Of a stretch of 64,000 nt of DNA, positions 5,749-10,410 are shown piece by piece. Positions within the stretch are counted from its first letter, which is position 1; the number at the start of each line of letters is the position of its first letter. The translations under genes and the position numbers were made by a program. Under the pieces are notes generated by a model. The model saw only the letters and a program-made list of their open reading frames with translations, was not told the DNA's origin and ran no database searches. The stretch is from Escherichia phage OSYSP, in sequence record MF402939. One strand, given 5' to 3'.

Positions 5749-6057
5749 ATGAGCGAACAGGTAAATCAAAACTATGAAGGACACGTTGATGACCAGTCCA
5801 TCATACTTTGGGAGAAGGAGGGGGAACAAGTAAGATTAACAGTATCTGAATTTCGTGGGAATCTATACATGGGTATTCGTTACTGGCTTCTTGATATTAA
5901 TGATGAGTGGTTTCCAACGAAATCTGGCTTCTCTTTTCCTTACACCCTAGAAACAACATCACAGCTTTTCTATGCGTTTACACAGATTCTTAGCGAATCT
6001 GAGGTTTTACATGAAGTACAGAAACGAGCTGAAGAACTCAAAGCCAAGAATGCCTAG
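5749..6057 (+). CDS. Hypothetical protein (102 aa)
   Basis: ORF track. Confidence 0.5.
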   Translation: MSEQVNQNYEGHVDDQSIILWEKEGEQVRLTVSEFRGNLYMGIRYWLLDINDEWFPTKSGFSFPYTLETTSQLFYAFTQILSESEVLHEVQKRAEELKAKNA

Positions 6058-6071
6058 TTCTTGGCTTTTTC
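6043..6071 (+). terminator. Rho-independent terminator (GCCAAGAA ... TTCTTGGC + TTTTTC)
   Basis: Hairpin plus T-run overlapping the stop codon. Confidence 0.65.
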
Positions 6072-6082
6072 TTTATAAATGT

Positions 6083-6125
6083 ATTTGCTTTCAACTCAGT
6101 TTTGTTATATAATATTTATATAAAT
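6083..6125 (+). promoter_or_regulatory. Early promoter with ATAAATT leader
   Basis: TTGCTT ... TATAAT consensus. Confidence 0.6.
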
Positions 6126-6144
6126 TAATGAGAGATATAAATAA

Positions 6145-7116
6145 ATGACTAATGTAAAAGAATTTATTAAACGCTGTCAAGAAGCATATTATCAAGGCAT
6201 GTCTTTAATCTCTGATGAGGAGTATGATCGCCTGGTAAAACGCTTCCCGTTAGAGGAAGAGATCGGGCCTAAGGGTGATATTCCACATCTATATCGTATG
6301 TATTCTTTACAGAAAGTTTACTATAACCGTGGAGATAAACCACCATTCAATCCTTTAGGTCAGGTGGAAACCGATAAGTTAGATGGTTGTGCAATTTCTC
6401 TGCTATATATTAATGGCGAATTTGTTCAAGCACTAACTCGTGGTAATGGTATTCTGGGGAATGATGTCACAAGCAACGTAAGATTGCTGAACATTCCTAA
6501 AAAGATTTCCCAAAAAGTACCTACTCAAATCACTGGTGAAGTTCTAATTACAAAAGAAGTAGAAAATAAACGTAACTTTGCCTCTGGTGCTATTAACCTC
6601 AAAGATAGCGATGCTTTCGTACAACGCATTGGAGAAGGCGGTTTAATCTTTGTTGCTTATGGTATCCAGTGTTCTGCTGAATCTGTAGGTATTACAGAAG
6701 CATATTTAAAAGATATGCTTTGGCTAGAGAATGAGAACTTCTTAACAGTCGTTAATGTGCGTTCCTTTTTTAAATGGATTCCGACGGACGGTAAAGTTGT
6801 TCGTATTAATGACAACAACAAATTCTTCCGCGAAGGCTGGACTAATAAATTCCCTCGTGGAGCATTCGCTATTAAAGAGGATGAAGAAGGCGAGATTACA
6901 ACTCTTACTAAAGTTGAATGGCAGGTAGGGGCTTCTGGTAAAGTAACTCCAGTTGGTTATTTCGAACCGGTAATTATTGATGATGCTACGATTGTTAAAG
7001 CGACTCTTAATAACGTTGATTATATTAACTCTCTCGATCTAGAGATCGGTTGCCAGATTCGAGTGATTCGTGCTGGTGGTGTAATCCCGTGCATAGTAGA
7101 GCGAGTATATGATTAA
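6145..7116 (+). CDS. NAD-dependent DNA ligase, N-terminal subunit (adenylation plus OB domains)
   Basis: KxDG adenylation motif (ETDKLDGCAISLLY) and LigA-like architecture in the translation. Confidence 0.8.
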   Translation: MTNVKEFIKRCQEAYYQGMSLISDEEYDRLVKRFPLEEEIGPKGDIPHLYRMYSLQKVYYNRGDKPPFNPLGQVETDKLDGCAISLLYINGEFVQALTRGNGILGNDVTSNVRLLNIPKKISQKVPTQITGEVLITKEVENKRNFASGAINLKDSDAFVQRIGEGGLIFVAYGIQCSAESVGITEAYLKDMLWLENENFLTVVNVRSFFKWIPTDGKVVRINDNNKFFREGWTNKFPRGAFAIKEDEEGEITTLTKVEWQVGASGKVTPVGYFEPVIIDDATIVKATLNNVDYINSLDLEIGCQIRVIRAGGVIPCIVERVYD

Positions 7117-7256
7117 TACATAACCCTTTGCTACCCATCTACCATATCGGAATTATAAAGTGGTTATTGACATTTTCGCCGCTTAGGTATATACTATTAT
7201 CATTCAGTTGAGGGATAGAAAGTTATGGCGAGGGTAAGCAAAGTTAGTTAAAATTG

Positions 7257-7300
7257 TAGTTGCTAAATGCTTAAATACTTGCTATAATATTTATATAAAT
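7257..7300 (+). promoter_or_regulatory. Early promoter sitting between the two ligase ORFs
   Basis: TTGCTA ... TATAAT plus ATAAATTGATAAGGAAG leader. Confidence 0.55.
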
Positions 7301-7318
7301 TGATAAGGAAGAAATTTG

Positions 7319-8095
7319 ATGAAAATCGAAATTCCAACACAATGTCCCTCTTGTGGTTCTAAGCTAGATCTTGTCAACGGACAATTATTCTGTCGTAATA
7401 AGTCCAACTGTCCAGCGCAATCAAGTAAGTTAATTGAGAACTTCTGTACAAAAATGAAGTTAAAGGGCTTTGGCCCGAAAACTATTGAAAAGCTGGAGCT
7501 GACTAAGATTTCAGAACTATTTTACCTAACCGAAGAAGATTTGGTTAGAGCCGTGGGTAGCAAGGTTGCCGCTAAGTTAATTAGCGAATTAAATACTAAA
7601 GTTCGTGGAGACATTGACTTTGGTTCAGTTCTCGGTTCTTTAGGAATCCCTCTAATTGGAGAGGTTGCAGCAAAGAAATTGTCCCAAAATTGCACCAGTT
7701 TTCAAGATGTGAGAGCTGATGGCAAAGCTGGAGAAAACTATAAAGCCTGGCTAAATTCCCCACAAGGCAAGGATGTTATCGAATTACCGTGGAAATTCTC
7801 AAATGGTATTAAGGGTGCTAAAGCTGACATCATTACTGATGGTCTAGTAGCCCAACCAAACGGAATAACGGTGTGTATTACCGGATCTTTGCAAGATTTT
7901 GCAAATCGAACGGATGCAACAAACTATTTAGAAGGTCTAGGATACACGGTTAAGAAATCCGTTACCAAAGACGTCAAATACCTAATCTGTGAGGATGAAT
8001 CGAAGCGTTCTTCCTCATCTTATAAGAAAGCCGAAACGAATGGGATAGAAATCCTGTCGATTAAAGAACTATTGGAGAAAAATAATAATGTCTAA
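7319..8095 (+). CDS. NAD-dependent DNA ligase, C-terminal subunit (Zn finger, HhH, BRCT-like)
   Basis: Cys4 motif CPSCGS...CRNKSNCPAQ; C-terminal BRCT-like region (ITGSL...KYLICEDE). Confidence 0.75.
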   Translation: MKIEIPTQCPSCGSKLDLVNGQLFCRNKSNCPAQSSKLIENFCTKMKLKGFGPKTIEKLELTKISELFYLTEEDLVRAVGSKVAAKLISELNTKVRGDIDFGSVLGSLGIPLIGEVAAKKLSQNCTSFQDVRADGKAGENYKAWLNSPQGKDVIELPWKFSNGIKGAKADIITDGLVAQPNGITVCITGSLQDFANRTDATNYLEGLGYTVKKSVTKDVKYLICEDESKRSSSSYKKAETNGIEILSIKELLEKNNNV

Positions 8096-8855
8096 ACTGA
8101 ACTGGAACGTAGAAGGTGTAACCGAGTCTCTGAAAGCAAAAGCCACTGCTCTGGGTGTTGCTGTAATCTCTCAAGAACAAGTAGCTGCTATCGCTGCTGA
8201 ACTGGCTGCTGAAACTGGCAAAGACGTTACCGCTCGCTCTGTTGGCTCTAAGCTGCGTAAAGAAGGTTTCGAAGTACAGAAAGCTAACGAAGTACAGAAA
8301 TCTCCGTGGACTCCTGAGCAGGAAGCTGAACTGGTTGATTTCCTGAACGCTCATGCTGGTCAGTATACCTATGCTGAAATCGCTGCTGCTGTAGCTGGTG
8401 GTCAATTTGGTGCTAGGCAGGTACAGGGTAAGATCCTGAGTCTGGAAATGACCGCTTCTGTTAAACCAACTGAAAAAGCAGCTGCTGTTCGTTCCTTCAC
8501 TCCTGATGAAGAAACTGATTTTGTTAATCAGGTTGTTGCTGGTGCTACTATTGAAGCTATCGCTGCTCACTTCGGTCGTAATATCAAGCAGATCCGTGGT
8601 AAAGCTCTGAGCCTGCTTCGTGAAGGTCGTATCGCTGCTATGCCGGTACAGGAAACTTCAAGTGCTAAAACTCGTGAAGATCTGCTAGAAGGTCTGGATC
8701 TGGTTAACATGACCGTTGCTGAGATCGCTGAGAAAACTGGTAAGTCTGAGCGTGGTGTTAAATCTATGTTGTCTCGTCGTGGTCTGGTTGCTAAGGACTA
8801 TGATGGTGCCGCTAAGCGTGCTAAACTGGATGCAAAAGCTGCGGCTGCTGAATAA
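8088..8855 (+). CDS. Ala-rich protein with internally duplicated helical modules; possible DNA-binding regulator
   Basis: ORF track; repeated AIAA...G(K/R) modules in the translation. Confidence 0.5.
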   Translation: MSKLNWNVEGVTESLKAKATALGVAVISQEQVAAIAAELAAETGKDVTARSVGSKLRKEGFEVQKANEVQKSPWTPEQEAELVDFLNAHAGQYTYAEIAAAVAGGQFGARQVQGKILSLEMTASVKPTEKAAAVRSFTPDEETDFVNQVVAGATIEAIAAHFGRNIKQIRGKALSLLREGRIAAMPVQETSSAKTREDLLEGLDLVNMTVAEIAEKTGKSERGVKSMLSRRGLVAKDYDGAAKRAKLDAKAAAAE

Positions 8856-8871
8856 TCTGGTAAATTAAACC

Positions 8872-8905
8872 TAAGGGGAGGGGGCTATGCTCCTTCCCCT
8901 TTTTG
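8872..8905 (+). terminator. Rho-independent terminator (AAGGGGA ... TCCCCTT + TTTT)
   Basis: Hairpin plus T-run. Confidence 0.7.
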
Positions 8906-8937
8906 CATTTAGAAGGCACGAAAGCGTGCAAAGGAGA

Positions 8938-10410
8938 ATGACCTTGTTTAACGTGCAAGCTGTAGTGTTGAAGATGCTTCTAGCTTCCGAACAGAAGCAA
9001 ATAGCATTGGAAACATTCTCAAAACTGCATAAAGATCATTTTAATGACGCTTTCTCCTCAATTTACCAAGCCGTCCAGAATTATTATAAAAAATATAACA
9101 CAATGCCGTCCATTGACGCACTGATGCTTGAGGCTAATAGGAACGCCCGCCTTTCTCAAGCTCTAGTCGTTTTAGCTAACACTCAAATTCCAGAAGTTAG
9201 CATGGAACAGGCACTTGAAGTCCTAGAGGCCGAGTATACACAGGATTTATTCCTGAAGCTTCTAGAAACAGACGTGCTTCAAGATTTAACAATGCTGGAT
9301 CAGGGAGAAATTCTTAACCGAGTTGCCTCCCTTCACTTAAAATTAGAAGAGAAAGTAACGAATACTGGAAAAGTATTCAACGCAGATAATATGCGTATTT
9401 TCCAGAGAGAAGAAGATACCAAACTGAACTTAATCGCTCTTGGTATTTGTAATGAGTTCGACGCTCAAATTGGTTTAGCTCGCACAGAAACGTTACTGCT
9501 TGGTGGTTGGCGTGGTACTGGTAAATCCATTATCTGTTCAAACATACAGGTTCAGCAATATTTGAATGGGGATATTGCTCCATACTTCTCAATTGAGATG
9601 AAAGAACATGAAGTATTTAGACGTAATCTAGCCATGTTAGCTGGTGTATCAGCACTAGCAATGCGTAATAATACTCTAGAAGGTGCAGCTCTGTTGAGAT
9701 TAGCCAGAACTAGAGCTAGGATGTTTAACGGTGGTGAAGAGCTCTTCGATAACTTCGTTAAACAGTATACAATGGCTAAGATGAGTGATTTCTACGACAT
9801 GGAGAGTAAGCTAATAGAAGGGTATGAGCTACATACTCCTATGATTATTGTTTATGACCCTGAGCTGTCTATTACAACAGTTGACGTAGAATTAAATAAA
9901 TTAGTTGCTAGATATGGGGATAAAGTTACAGTAGCTTTACTGGACTATATTAACCAAACCCGACTTCCAGACTCTAAAACCATTGATATGTATGACTGGA
10001 AAGAACAGATGGTTGTTAGCTCGTCTTTCAAATCTATCTGCCAGAAACATAACGTGGCTGGTGTAGCTCCTTACCAGATTGATCAAGATGGTAGAACACG
10101 TATGTCAAAAGGGATTCTTGATTCCGCAGACATGGCTGCTAATCTTAATGCTGCAAAAGCTGATAATGGTCAAGGTGCTATTATGTTTGACTTCGTTAAG
10201 ACTCGTTCTTCTGATAGCGTGAAGTTTATGCCTAAAATGAACTGGGAAACCCTGCGGATGGATAACACTACCAACCTAGCAATGGAAGATATATCTCAAA
10301 TGGAAGCTGAGTTCGTTATCCCTATTGAGAAGGATAAGCCGGCTCAATCTAAACGTGCTAAGAAAGACAAAGCTGAAAATTCAACAGGTGAACAGGCCAG
10401 CGATATATGA
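8938..10410 (+). CDS. Putative DnaB-like/RecA-fold replicative helicase
   Basis: Walker A GWRGTGKS; AAGGAG Shine-Dalgarno before ATG at 8938; lies directly upstream of primase. Confidence 0.55.
   Translation: MTLFNVQAVVLKMLLASEQKQIALETFSKLHKDHFNDAFSSIYQAVQNYYKKYNTMPSIDALMLEANRNARLSQALVVLANTQIPEVSMEQALEVLEAEYTQDLFLKLLETDVLQDLTMLDQGEILNRVASLHLKLEEKVTNTGKVFNADNMRIFQREEDTKLNLIALGICNEFDAQIGLARTETLLLGGWRGTGKSIICSNIQVQQYLNGDIAPYFSIEMKEHEVFRRNLAMLAGVSALAMRNNTLEGAALLRLARTRARMFNGGEELFDNFVKQYTMAKMSDFYDMESKLIEGYELHTPMIIVYDPELSITTVDVELNKLVARYGDKVTVALLDYINQTRLPDSKTIDMYDWKEQMVVSSSFKSICQKHNVAGVAPYQIDQDGRTRMSKGILDSADMAANLNAAKADNGQGAIMFDFVKTRSSDSVKFMPKMNWETLRMDNTTNLAMEDISQMEAEFVIPIEKDKPAQSKRAKKDKAENSTGEQASDI

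What the first reader, a model, noticed from the sequence alone, without database searches (positions are those of the whole stretch)
6145..8095. NAD-dependent DNA ligase encoded as two separate ORFs with a promoter between them
The adenylation/OB half (KxDG motif) ends at 7116 and the Zn-finger/HhH/BRCT half starts at 7319. The roughly 200-bp gap holds stop codons and a promoter-like TTGCTA...TATAAT element, so this is neither a frameshift nor an obvious intron. A two-subunit ligase is unusual relative to bacterial LigA and raises the question of how the halves assemble.
Basis: partly seen in the sequence, partly recalled or inferred. Interest (0 to 1): 0.45.

Follow-up and report, generated by a model that had tools for sequence, protein, structure and literature searches.

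The report
Phage T5's known two-piece DNA ligase
This is the well-known split NAD-dependent DNA ligase of phage T5 and its relatives: two adjacent genes, separated by a conserved pair of strong promoters, whose products work together as a heterodimer.

Summary
ORF 6145-7116 encodes domain Ia, the adenylation domain (KLDG) and the OB fold. ORF 7319-8095 encodes the Cys4 zinc finger, the HhH region and the BRCT domain. The 202-bp gap between them has stop codons in all three frames and two sigma-70 promoters.

The window is a T5-like phage, 98% identical to T5. [quoted passage not shown] PDB entry 9HU3 is a [quoted passage not shown]. Its two chains match the two ORFs at E 1e-103 and 1e-79.

What I add:
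- All 90 related loci that carry separate ligA and ligB ORFs are cut at the same OB/zinc-finger linker.
- Every one of 35 distinct ligB-upstream regions carries a near-consensus promoter.
- Within T5-likes the gap is as conserved as second codon positions.
- Compact unsplit relatives of 555-586 aa sit at the same position in the replication module. Split and fused states changed at least twice.
- The gap sometimes holds endonuclease or other accessory genes.

No intron, intein, frameshift or pseudogene is involved. Verdict: real, correctly interpreted, already known.

The parts
6040..6068 (+). Terminator-like hairpin after the upstream PC4-like gene (5749-6057); context only
   Evidence: 12-bp stem followed by a T-run.
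6085..6113 (+). Promoter-like element before ligA: TTGCTT, 17-nt spacer, TATAAT. It lies inside the stretch that T5 annotates as 'putative promoter' (window 6073-6140)
   Evidence: Read from the sequence. T5 annotation mapped with an offset of 4499. The -10 hexamer and leader (6108-6129) are identical to those before ligB.
6145..7116 (+). ligA, 323 aa: short domain Ia (nt 6145-6282, motif AYYxG..ISDEEYDRL), adenylation domain (about 6283-6897, KLDG at 6376-6387) and OB fold (6898-7107)
   Evidence: Pfam PF01653 and PF03120. 100% protein identity to T5 LigA. E 1.9e-103 to PDB 9hu3_A; residues 214-320 align to E. coli LigA 2owo 284-390. dN/dS 0.01-0.17.
7117..7318 (+). 202-bp intergenic region between the two halves. 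No coding potential; it carries two tandem promoters and the ligB leader and Shine-Dalgarno sequence
   Evidence: Stop codons in all frames. No Rfam match and no unusual RNA fold, z = -1.0. Nucleotide diversity 0.012 among 26 distinct T5-likes, against 0.158 and 0.091 at ligA and ligB third codon positions.
7167..7195 (+). Distal promoter, TTGACA-17-TATACT. Corresponds to T5 P-K28b (annotated span = window 7147-7221)
   Evidence: 11 of 12 match. T5 annotation. Both hexamers conserved across relatives of 53-72% LigB identity.
7260..7288 (+). Proximal promoter, TTGCTA-17-TATAAT with TG extension. Corresponds to T5 P-K28a (annotated span = window 7240-7314).
   Evidence: A promoter at this position, with the -10 hexamer ending 24-41 nt before the ligB start, is the best hit in all 24 distinct regions outside the T5/Priunavirus/Vibrio clade. 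In that clade the distal promoter scores highest.
7305..7309 (+). Shine-Dalgarno sequence AAGGA, 9 nt before the ligB ATG
   Evidence: Read from the sequence; conserved in the alignment of relatives.
7319..8095 (+). ligB, 258 aa: Cys4 zinc finger (C9, C12, C25, C31; nt 7343-7411), HhH region (about 7427-7798), low-confidence linker (7808-7855) and BRCT domain (7859-8077)
   Evidence: Pfam BRCT plus sub-threshold HhH hits. The four Cys are invariant in 28 homologues. E 1.3e-79 to 9hu3_B; residues 3-123 align to 2owo 402-530. AlphaFold model with pLDDT 82.8 matches 9hu3_B and the C-terminal half of E. coli LigA. dN/dS 0.05-0.15.
8088..8855 (+). D5-type DNA-binding protein gene. Its ATG overlaps the end of ligB, so ligB is the first gene of the unit that continues into D5 and the helicase (8887-10410)
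   Evidence: ORF list; T5 annotation. The order ligase, D5-like, DnaB, DnaG, PolA is also found in distant relatives.

Best explanation
These are the two genes of the heterodimeric NAD+-dependent DNA ligase of T5-like phages. LigA (domain Ia, nucleotidyltransferase, OB fold) takes AMP from NAD+ onto Lys78 of KLDG. LigB (zinc finger, HhH, BRCT) supplies the DNA-binding half of the clamp. The two polypeptides are translated separately and associate without a covalent link on nicked DNA, rebuilding the ring that single-chain bacterial LigA forms around a nick. The cut falls exactly in the short OB/zinc-finger linker, and only about 3-16 linker residues are missing. The 202-bp spacer is a real, selected intergenic region. 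It holds two strong early promoters (T5 P-K28b and P-K28a) that start a transcription unit running ligB, D5, helicase. No terminator follows ligA, so read-through from the ligA promoter is likely. Shown here: gene structure, domain content, conservation, purifying selection, promoter conservation, and homology to a solved heterodimer. Inferred: heterodimer formation and activity for this particular phage, and the transcription pattern.
For: - Identity: 98% nucleotide identity to T5, where the genes are annotated ligA/ligB subunits A and B and the gap promoters P-K28b and P-K28a.
- Domains and motifs.
- Structure of a homologue: PDB 9HU3/9I5I has chain A 'DNA ligase (NAD+)' and chain B 'DNA ligase subunit B'. 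They match at E 1.9e-103 and 1.3e-79. The source is a Providencia T5-like phage. The entry title is 'PR1 phage heterodimeric DNA ligase in complex with 21-mer nicked DNA containing phage nick sequence'.
- Same cut everywhere: A then B, same strand, same cut point in 90 of 93 loci, down to 34% LigB identity. The other 3 loci encode unsplit relatives.
- Nothing missing: unsplit relatives are colinear with A+B, with only a short linker at the cut.
- Selection: both halves are under purifying selection.
- Need for LigB: a truncated Ia-NTase-OB ligase adenylates itself but cannot ligate (PMC1684257), so LigA should need LigB.
- Promoters: a near-consensus promoter with a 17-nt spacer in 34 of 35 distinct ligB-upstream regions (18 nt in L077). 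It scores at least 10 of 12 in 33 of 35, and shuffles reach the observed score in at most 2% of trials for those 33. The hexamers are the conserved islands in the gap alignment. Gap diversity equals that of second codon positions.
Against: - No experiment on this phage's own proteins was available.
- The paper behind 9HU3 was not in the searchable library, so its biochemical conclusions are unknown to me.
- The HhH Pfam hits are below their curated cut-offs. The HhH assignment rests on alignment to solved LigA chains and on the fold match.
- Promoter use in vivo is taken from the T5 annotation and from conservation, not from transcript data that I could read.
- Relative expression of the two halves is unknown.
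Confidence: 0.9

Rival explanations
1. LigA alone is the working ligase, like the minimal NTase-OB ligases of some viruses. LigB would then have drifted to another job, such as a BRCT/HhH nick- or replisome-binding factor.
For: LigB has its own promoters and heads the D5-helicase unit, so its expression can be uncoupled from ligA. The gap can hold up to three unrelated genes.
Against: The two genes are adjacent and in the same order in all 90 split loci. The zinc-finger cysteines are invariant. Unsplit relatives are colinear with A+B. A homologue crystallised as an A-B heterodimer on nicked DNA. Truncated LigA-type enzymes lacking these domains do not ligate.
Confidence: 0.06
2. The two ORFs are rejoined at the RNA or protein level, by an intron, a split intein or translational bypass.
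For: Phages are known to use all three devices (general knowledge). The cut is clean and lies in a linker.
Against: There is no Rfam hit and no unusual fold in the gap. Gap length and content vary from 65 to 1360 bp and include whole genes. A+B is fully accounted for by ligase domains, leaving no room for intein halves. ligB has its own Shine-Dalgarno sequence, start codon and promoters. The solved homologue has two separate chains.
Confidence: 0.02
3. It is a broken gene: a pseudogene, an assembly error or a sequencing error.
For: None beyond the bare fact of two ORFs.
Against: The identical 202-bp gap occurs in the sampled T5-like records from independent isolates. dN/dS is 0.01-0.17 in both halves. 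The gap itself is under strong constraint.
Confidence: 0.01

Closest known systems
Bacteriophage T5 LigA/LigB (T5p114 and T5p115; 'split NAD+-dependent DNA ligase', Wang et al. 2005 as cited in PMC1684257)
   Same: It is the same locus. LigA is 100% and LigB 98% identical at protein level, with the same 202-bp gap and the same promoters P-K28b and P-K28a.
   Different: Only strain-level substitutions and a one-codon length difference in ligB (258 against 259 aa).
PR1 phage heterodimeric DNA ligase, PDB 9HU3/9I5I (Providencia T5-like phage, Priunavirus)
   Same: Same two-gene architecture, same cut point, and a 192-bp gap with the same two promoters. Protein identity is about 52-53% (tblastn; 54-55% in the MAFFT alignments), with E 1e-103 and 1e-79. 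It was solved as an A-B complex on nicked DNA.
   Different: A different genus. No structure or assay exists for the window's own proteins.
Single-chain bacterial LigA (E. coli, PDB 2OWO)
   Same: Same domain order: Ia, NTase, OB, zinc finger, HhH, BRCT, with the same catalytic motifs. The T5 halves align to 2owo 284-390 and 402-530 on either side of the cut.
   Different: It is one 671-aa chain. The phage enzyme is two chains totalling 581 aa and is more compact. The compact phage family, split and fused together, forms its own clade against the long bacterial forms in 200 of 200 bootstraps.
Compact unsplit LigA of environmental T5-like phages (for example P0272 of 566 aa and P0281 of 557 aa)
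   Same: 34-40% identity to A+B along the whole length. Same position between the PC4-like gene and the D5-like, DnaB, DnaG and PolA genes.
   Different: A single ORF with a 3-16 residue linker where T5 has a stop codon, promoters and a restart.
Other phage 'genes in pieces' (own knowledge): Aeromonas phage Aeh1 nrdA, split by the mobE homing endonuclease, and T4 topoisomerase gp39/gp60
   Same: An essential enzyme split at a domain boundary into two adjacent genes whose products reassemble. Here the gap holds a GIY-YIG endonuclease gene in Salmonella phage SP3 and an endonuclease-like ORF in L092.
   Different: In T5 itself the gap holds only promoters. No endonuclease remnant is detectable, so a mobile-element origin is a hypothesis, not a finding.

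Membership tests
NAD+-dependent DNA ligase (LigA family) | Domain Ia with the NMN-binding YY...D..YD motif | tested here: met
   AYYQGMSLISDEEYDRL aligns to domain Ia of T. filiformis LigA. Y15, Y16, Y27 and D28 are invariant in four divergent homologues.
NAD+-dependent DNA ligase (LigA family) | Nucleotidyltransferase domain with KxDG | tested here: met
   PF01653 at E 1.3e-23. KLDG at residues 78-81 is invariant.
NAD+-dependent DNA ligase (LigA family) | LigA-type OB fold | tested here: met
   PF03120 at E 3.3e-22, 78.6 bits against a cut-off of 32.9.
NAD+-dependent DNA ligase (LigA family) | Cys4 zinc finger after the OB fold | tested here: met
   C9, C12, C25 and C31 of LigB are invariant in 28 homologues. 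They align to 2owo residues 402 onward.
NAD+-dependent DNA ligase (LigA family) | HhH DNA-binding domain | tested here: inconclusive
   The Pfam HhH hits are below their cut-offs (25.0 and 17.8 bits against 27). Sequence alignment to 2owo 402-530 and the fold match to the E. coli LigA C-terminal half support the assignment.
NAD+-dependent DNA ligase (LigA family) | C-terminal BRCT domain | tested here: met
   PF00533 at E 1.6e-8, 35.1 bits against a cut-off of 21.3.
NAD+-dependent DNA ligase (LigA family) | All domains on one polypeptide | tested here: not met
   Two ORFs in different frames, 202 bp apart. This is the known T5-type exception.
NAD+-dependent DNA ligase (LigA family) | NAD+-dependent nick sealing | not testable with these tools
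   Needs biochemistry.
Heterodimeric T5-type phage ligase (LigA + LigB; PDB 9HU3 type) | Adjacent co-oriented genes cut at the OB/zinc-finger linker | tested here: met
   Same cut in 90 of 93 related loci; the other 3 encode unsplit relatives.
Heterodimeric T5-type phage ligase (LigA + LigB; PDB 9HU3 type) | Full-length similarity to both solved chains | tested here: met
   E 1.9e-103 (residues 4-323 to 11-339) and E 1.3e-79 (residues 1-254 to 1-244).
Heterodimeric T5-type phage ligase (LigA + LigB; PDB 9HU3 type) | A-B complex on nicked DNA | not testable with these tools
   Shown for the PR1 homologue by the title of PDB 9HU3, not for this phage.
Intron- or intein-interrupted gene | Structured intron RNA, or intein halves flanking the break | tested here: not met
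   No Rfam match. Fold z = -1.0. No residues beyond the ligase domains. Gap content varies between relatives.

The most novel reading that the evidence does not exclude
The split may be maintained for regulation rather than being a frozen accident. Every split lineage keeps a strong promoter in the cut, so the DNA-binding half (LigB) heads the D5-helicase replication unit and can be made at a different level or time from the catalytic half. That would let T5-like phages tune ligation, for example to tolerate their own programmed genome nicks. The cut has been made or healed at least twice in this phage group. In at least one lineage (L092, sister to the unsplit P0281) an endonuclease-like gene sits in the cut, which suggests that mobile-endonuclease insertion can create the split.
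Probability: 0.2. Interest if true: 0.45.

Novelty: already known. Interest (0 to 1): 0.17.

Why it matters
The T5 ligase is a natural example of an essential replication enzyme working as two non-covalently joined halves. It is useful for understanding how the LigA clamp closes on DNA and for engineering split ligases. The case itself has been annotated since 2004-2005 and now has a solved heterodimer structure. The comparative points found here are modest additions that could guide experiments on why the split persists. They are the universal promoter in the cut, the unsplit relatives at the same genomic position, at least two changes of state, and endonuclease genes in the gap. None of them is a new kind of system.

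Tried and rejected
- **Paper behind PDB 9HU3.** Five literature searches did not find it. A search for the K28 promoters also found nothing relevant.
- **Non-coding RNA in the gap.** There is no tRNA in the window, no Rfam match in 6900-7500 and no unusual RNA structure in the gap. An intron or small RNA is therefore dropped.
- **Small ORF in the gap.** The 8-codon ORF at 7226-7252 (MARVSKVS) is not conserved in relatives.
- **Insertions seen.** The two-piece matches (oldekolle, IrisVonRoten, HdH2) reflect extra small ORFs upstream of ligA, not in the gap.
- **Homing endonucleases in Vibrio-phage gap ORFs.** None was found; one ORF is DprA-like and the rest are unknown.
- **Shared leader as a conserved co-regulation device.** The 22-nt -10/leader cassette shared by ligA and ligB is specific to T5-proper. 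Most relatives have no promoter directly before ligA.
- **First ligB dN/dS.** The estimate was invalid because the comparison was ungapped across a one-codon indel. It was redone with codon alignments.
- **First tree.** An NJ tree of the LigA half alone was star-like and uninformative. It was replaced by a bootstrapped tree of concatenated A+B.

Full report
**1. What is in the sequence**

The window contains ORF 6145-7116 (+, 323 aa) and ORF 7319-8095 (+, 258 aa from the ATG; a TTG lies one codon upstream).
- The first ORF hits Pfam DNA_ligase_aden (E 1.3e-23) and DNA_ligase_OB (E 3.3e-22).
- The second hits BRCT (E 1.6e-8) plus sub-threshold HhH models.
- LigA starts with a short domain Ia motif (AYYQGMSLISDEEYDRL) and has KLDG at residues 78-81.
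- LigB starts MKIEIPTQCPSCG...LFCRNKSNCPAQ, a Cys4 zinc finger. Its four cysteines are invariant in 28 homologues.
- The 202-bp gap (7117-7318) has 7, 5 and 5 stop codons in the three frames, and the two genes lie in different frames.
- The consensus scan finds TTGACA-17-TATACT at 7167-7195 (11 of 12) and TTGCTA-17-TATAAT at 7260-7288, the latter with a TG extension. An AAGGA Shine-Dalgarno sequence lies 9 nt before the ATG.

It missed only the second promoter.

**2. What it is**

The 2.2-kb region is 98% identical to Escherichia phage T5, and 444 phage records match it.
[quoted passage not shown] The gap carries two annotated promoters, P-K28b and P-K28a. These map to window 7147-7221 and 7240-7314 and enclose the two scan hits.
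[quoted passage not shown] They also show that a LigA-type enzyme truncated after the OB fold adenylates itself but cannot ligate.
- A 2013 T5 paper lists both subunits as well.

**3. Direct structural precedent**

Both ORFs have full-length matches in the PDB. These are 9hu3/9i5i chain A "DNA ligase (NAD+)" at E 1.9e-103 and chain B "DNA ligase subunit B" at E 1.3e-79.
- Chain B is 100% identical to the LigB of Providencia phage PSTCR5, a T5-like Priunavirus.
- An AlphaFold model of the window's LigB (pLDDT 82.8) retrieves 9hu3_B. The entry title is [quoted passage not shown], released 2026-01-14.
- The question of how the halves assemble has therefore been answered experimentally for a close homologue. 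I could not find the paper in the library.

**4. Where the cut lies**

- LigA residues 214-320 align to E. coli LigA (2owo) residues 284-390, and LigB residues 3-123 align to 402-530. The cut is therefore in the OB/zinc-finger linker.
- An exhaustive HMMER search of 1.84 billion cluster representatives found about 55 best clusters of 304-339 aa. It also found compact unsplit relatives of 555-586 aa at 38-46% identity.
- When these are aligned to concatenated A+B they are colinear over about 540 residues (34-40% identity). They have just 3-16 residues where T5 has stop, spacer and start. Nothing is missing from the T5 enzyme except a few linker residues, which leaves no room for an intein.

**5. 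Comparative survey**

- Of the 93 related loci fetched, 90 carry ligA and ligB as separate, co-oriented ORFs in the order A then B, cut at the same point. These span phage records and IMG/VR contigs down to 34% LigB identity. The other three (L088, L089, L091) encode the unsplit form.
- The gap is 65-118 bp in distant metagenomic relatives and 189-202 bp in Markadamsvirinae and Priunavirus. It is 443-1360 bp where extra genes are inserted.
- The inserted genes include DprA-like proteins in Vibrio phages and a radical-SAM protein. Salmonella phage SP3 has a GIY-YIG homing endonuclease, and L092 has an endonuclease-like ORF.
- Variable gene content rules out an intron. No Rfam family matches, and the gap RNA folds no better than shuffles.
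- Both halves are under purifying selection: ligA dN/dS is 0.01-0.17 and ligB 0.05-0.15.

**6. The spacer is a selected promoter region**

- I took the 200 nt (or fewer) upstream of ligB in 35 de-duplicated loci. In every one the best sigma-70 match is near-consensus.
- The spacer is 17 nt in 34 of the 35 (18 nt in L077). The match is at least 10 of 12 in 33 of 35. For those 33, dinucleotide shuffles reach the observed score in at most 2% of trials.
- In the 24 regions outside the T5/Priunavirus/Vibrio clade the -10 hexamer ends 24-41 nt before the ligB start. In the T5, Priunavirus and Vibrio groups a second promoter lies about 90 nt further upstream.
- In an alignment of gaps from relatives with 53-72% LigB identity, the conserved islands are exactly these elements. 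They are the two -35 and -10 hexamers, an A-rich tract upstream of the proximal -35, and the Shine-Dalgarno sequence.
- Among 26 distinct T5-like sequences, nucleotide diversity in the gap is 0.012. That is the same as second codon positions (0.011-0.014) and 8- to 13-fold lower than third positions of ligB (0.091) and ligA (0.158). Positions 7145-7344 are among the most conserved stretches of the 2.7 kb compared.
- No terminator-like site follows ligA, so read-through from the ligA promoter is likely.
- ligB overlaps the start of the D5 gene (8088), which is followed by the helicase. ligB is thus the first gene of a promoter-headed replication unit.

**7. Evolution of the split**

- Unsplit compact ligases occupy the same position as the T5 pair: PC4-like gene, ligase, D5-like, DnaB, DnaG, PolA. 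Split ones in other environmental phages sit there too.
- I built a neighbour-joining tree of concatenated A+B (544 columns, 200 bootstraps).
  - The compact phage family separates from long bacterial LigA in 200 of 200 replicates.
  - Twelve of 14 unsplit forms are basal and never nest among split ones.
  - The split forms alone are never monophyletic (0 of 200).
  - Unsplit P0281 is sister to split L092 in 199 of 200 replicates.
  - Unsplit P0308 falls inside an otherwise all-split clade in 160 of 200.
- The simplest reading is an unsplit compact ancestor and at least two changes of state (fission, or fission followed by re-fusion).
- L092, the split sister of an unsplit form, carries an endonuclease-like ORF in the cut (PHROG 681, E 1.8e-12). 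This is suggestive of fission by mobile-endonuclease insertion but is no proof of it.
- NJ with simple distances is a crude method, and an ML analysis is needed.

**8. Mechanism**

Shown here:
- two separately initiated genes that together carry all six LigA modules;
- conservation and selection on both genes and on the promoters;
- homology to a solved A-B complex on nicked DNA.

From established LigA enzymology:
- Domain Ia and the NTase domain adenylate the KxDG lysine from NAD+.
- The zinc finger and HhH region are needed for nick binding and clamp closure. This agrees with the LigN truncation result.

Inferred for this phage:
- LigA and LigB form a heterodimer that encircles the nick.
- ligB is transcribed from P-K28b and P-K28a plus read-through.

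**9. Rivals**

- LigA acting alone, with LigB repurposed (about 0.06), is disfavoured by strict co-occurrence, the invariant zinc finger and the solved heterodimer.
- RNA- or protein-level rejoining (about 0.02) and pseudogene or sequencing error (about 0.01) are effectively excluded, as described above.

**10. Verdict**

However, it is the textbook-annotated split ligase of T5, with a homologous heterodimer structure already released. Novelty: already known. Interest is low at 0.17. The universal promoter in the cut, the unsplit relatives at the same position, and the repeated change of state are minor additions worth a note.

Noticed in passing
L031 5199-5840 (Salmonella phage SP3; also vB_Sen_SG_WM_RUS_R2): A 213-aa GIY-YIG homing-endonuclease gene sits in the ligA-ligB gap, which is 794 bp there, in only 3 phage records. 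The last ~70 residues of LigA next to it are noticeably more diverged than in other T5-likes, as expected for a co-conversion tract or cleavage-site immunity.
   Followed up: partly
L092 5959-6330 (ENA metagenome contig), compared with L091: An endonuclease-like 123-aa ORF (PHROG 681, E 1.8e-12; weak Pfam MUG113) lies in the cut of a split ligase. The closest relative of that ligase (P0281, 199 of 200 bootstraps) is unsplit. This may be a recent fission caused by a mobile gene.
   Followed up: partly
window 6108-6129 and 7283-7304: The 22-nt stretch TATAATATTTATATAAATTRAT (-10 hexamer plus leader) occurs exactly twice in the 64-kb window, once before ligA and once before ligB (0 expected by chance). 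The pairing is not kept in distant relatives, where ligA usually has no promoter of its own.
   Followed up: yes
window 7145-7344: This stretch, covering both promoters and the ligB start, is among the most conserved of the ligA-D5 region among 26 T5-likes (diversity 0.002-0.009). That includes the 60 nt between the two promoters, which is more than hexamer conservation alone would need. It may carry an extra regulatory site.
   Followed up: partly
L007 1140-2343, L038, L041, L045 564-1565, L043: In Vibrio and environmental T5-like phages the ligase gap holds accessory genes: DprA-like proteins, a radical-SAM protein (Pfam E 2.7e-11), a crAss001_48-like protein and unknowns. In each case a promoter is still present just before ligB.
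   Followed up: partly
window 8088-8095: The D5 gene ATG (8088) overlaps the last codons and stop of ligB (ATGTCTAA), which suggests translational coupling of ligB and D5.
   Followed up: no
L002 1145-1618, L003 1144-1344, L004 1144-1332: Close relatives (oldekolle, IrisVonRoten, HdH2) carry one or two extra small ORFs between the PC4-like gene and ligA. These are absent from the window and from T5, where a promoter abuts ligA instead.
   Followed up: no
window 7795-7855 (LigB residues ~160-179): The linker between the HhH and BRCT domains is the most variable part of ligB (diversity 0.164). It carries the one- to three-codon length differences between strains and is predicted to be disordered (pLDDT below 50).
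   Followed up: no
searches hit lists (P0012, P0157, P0124, P0135): Proteins 96-100% identical to the window's (T5-like) LigA or LigB are deposited under bacterial names (Enterococcus faecalis, Brucella melitensis, Salmonella enterica). These are most likely phage sequences carried into bacterial assemblies.
   Followed up: no
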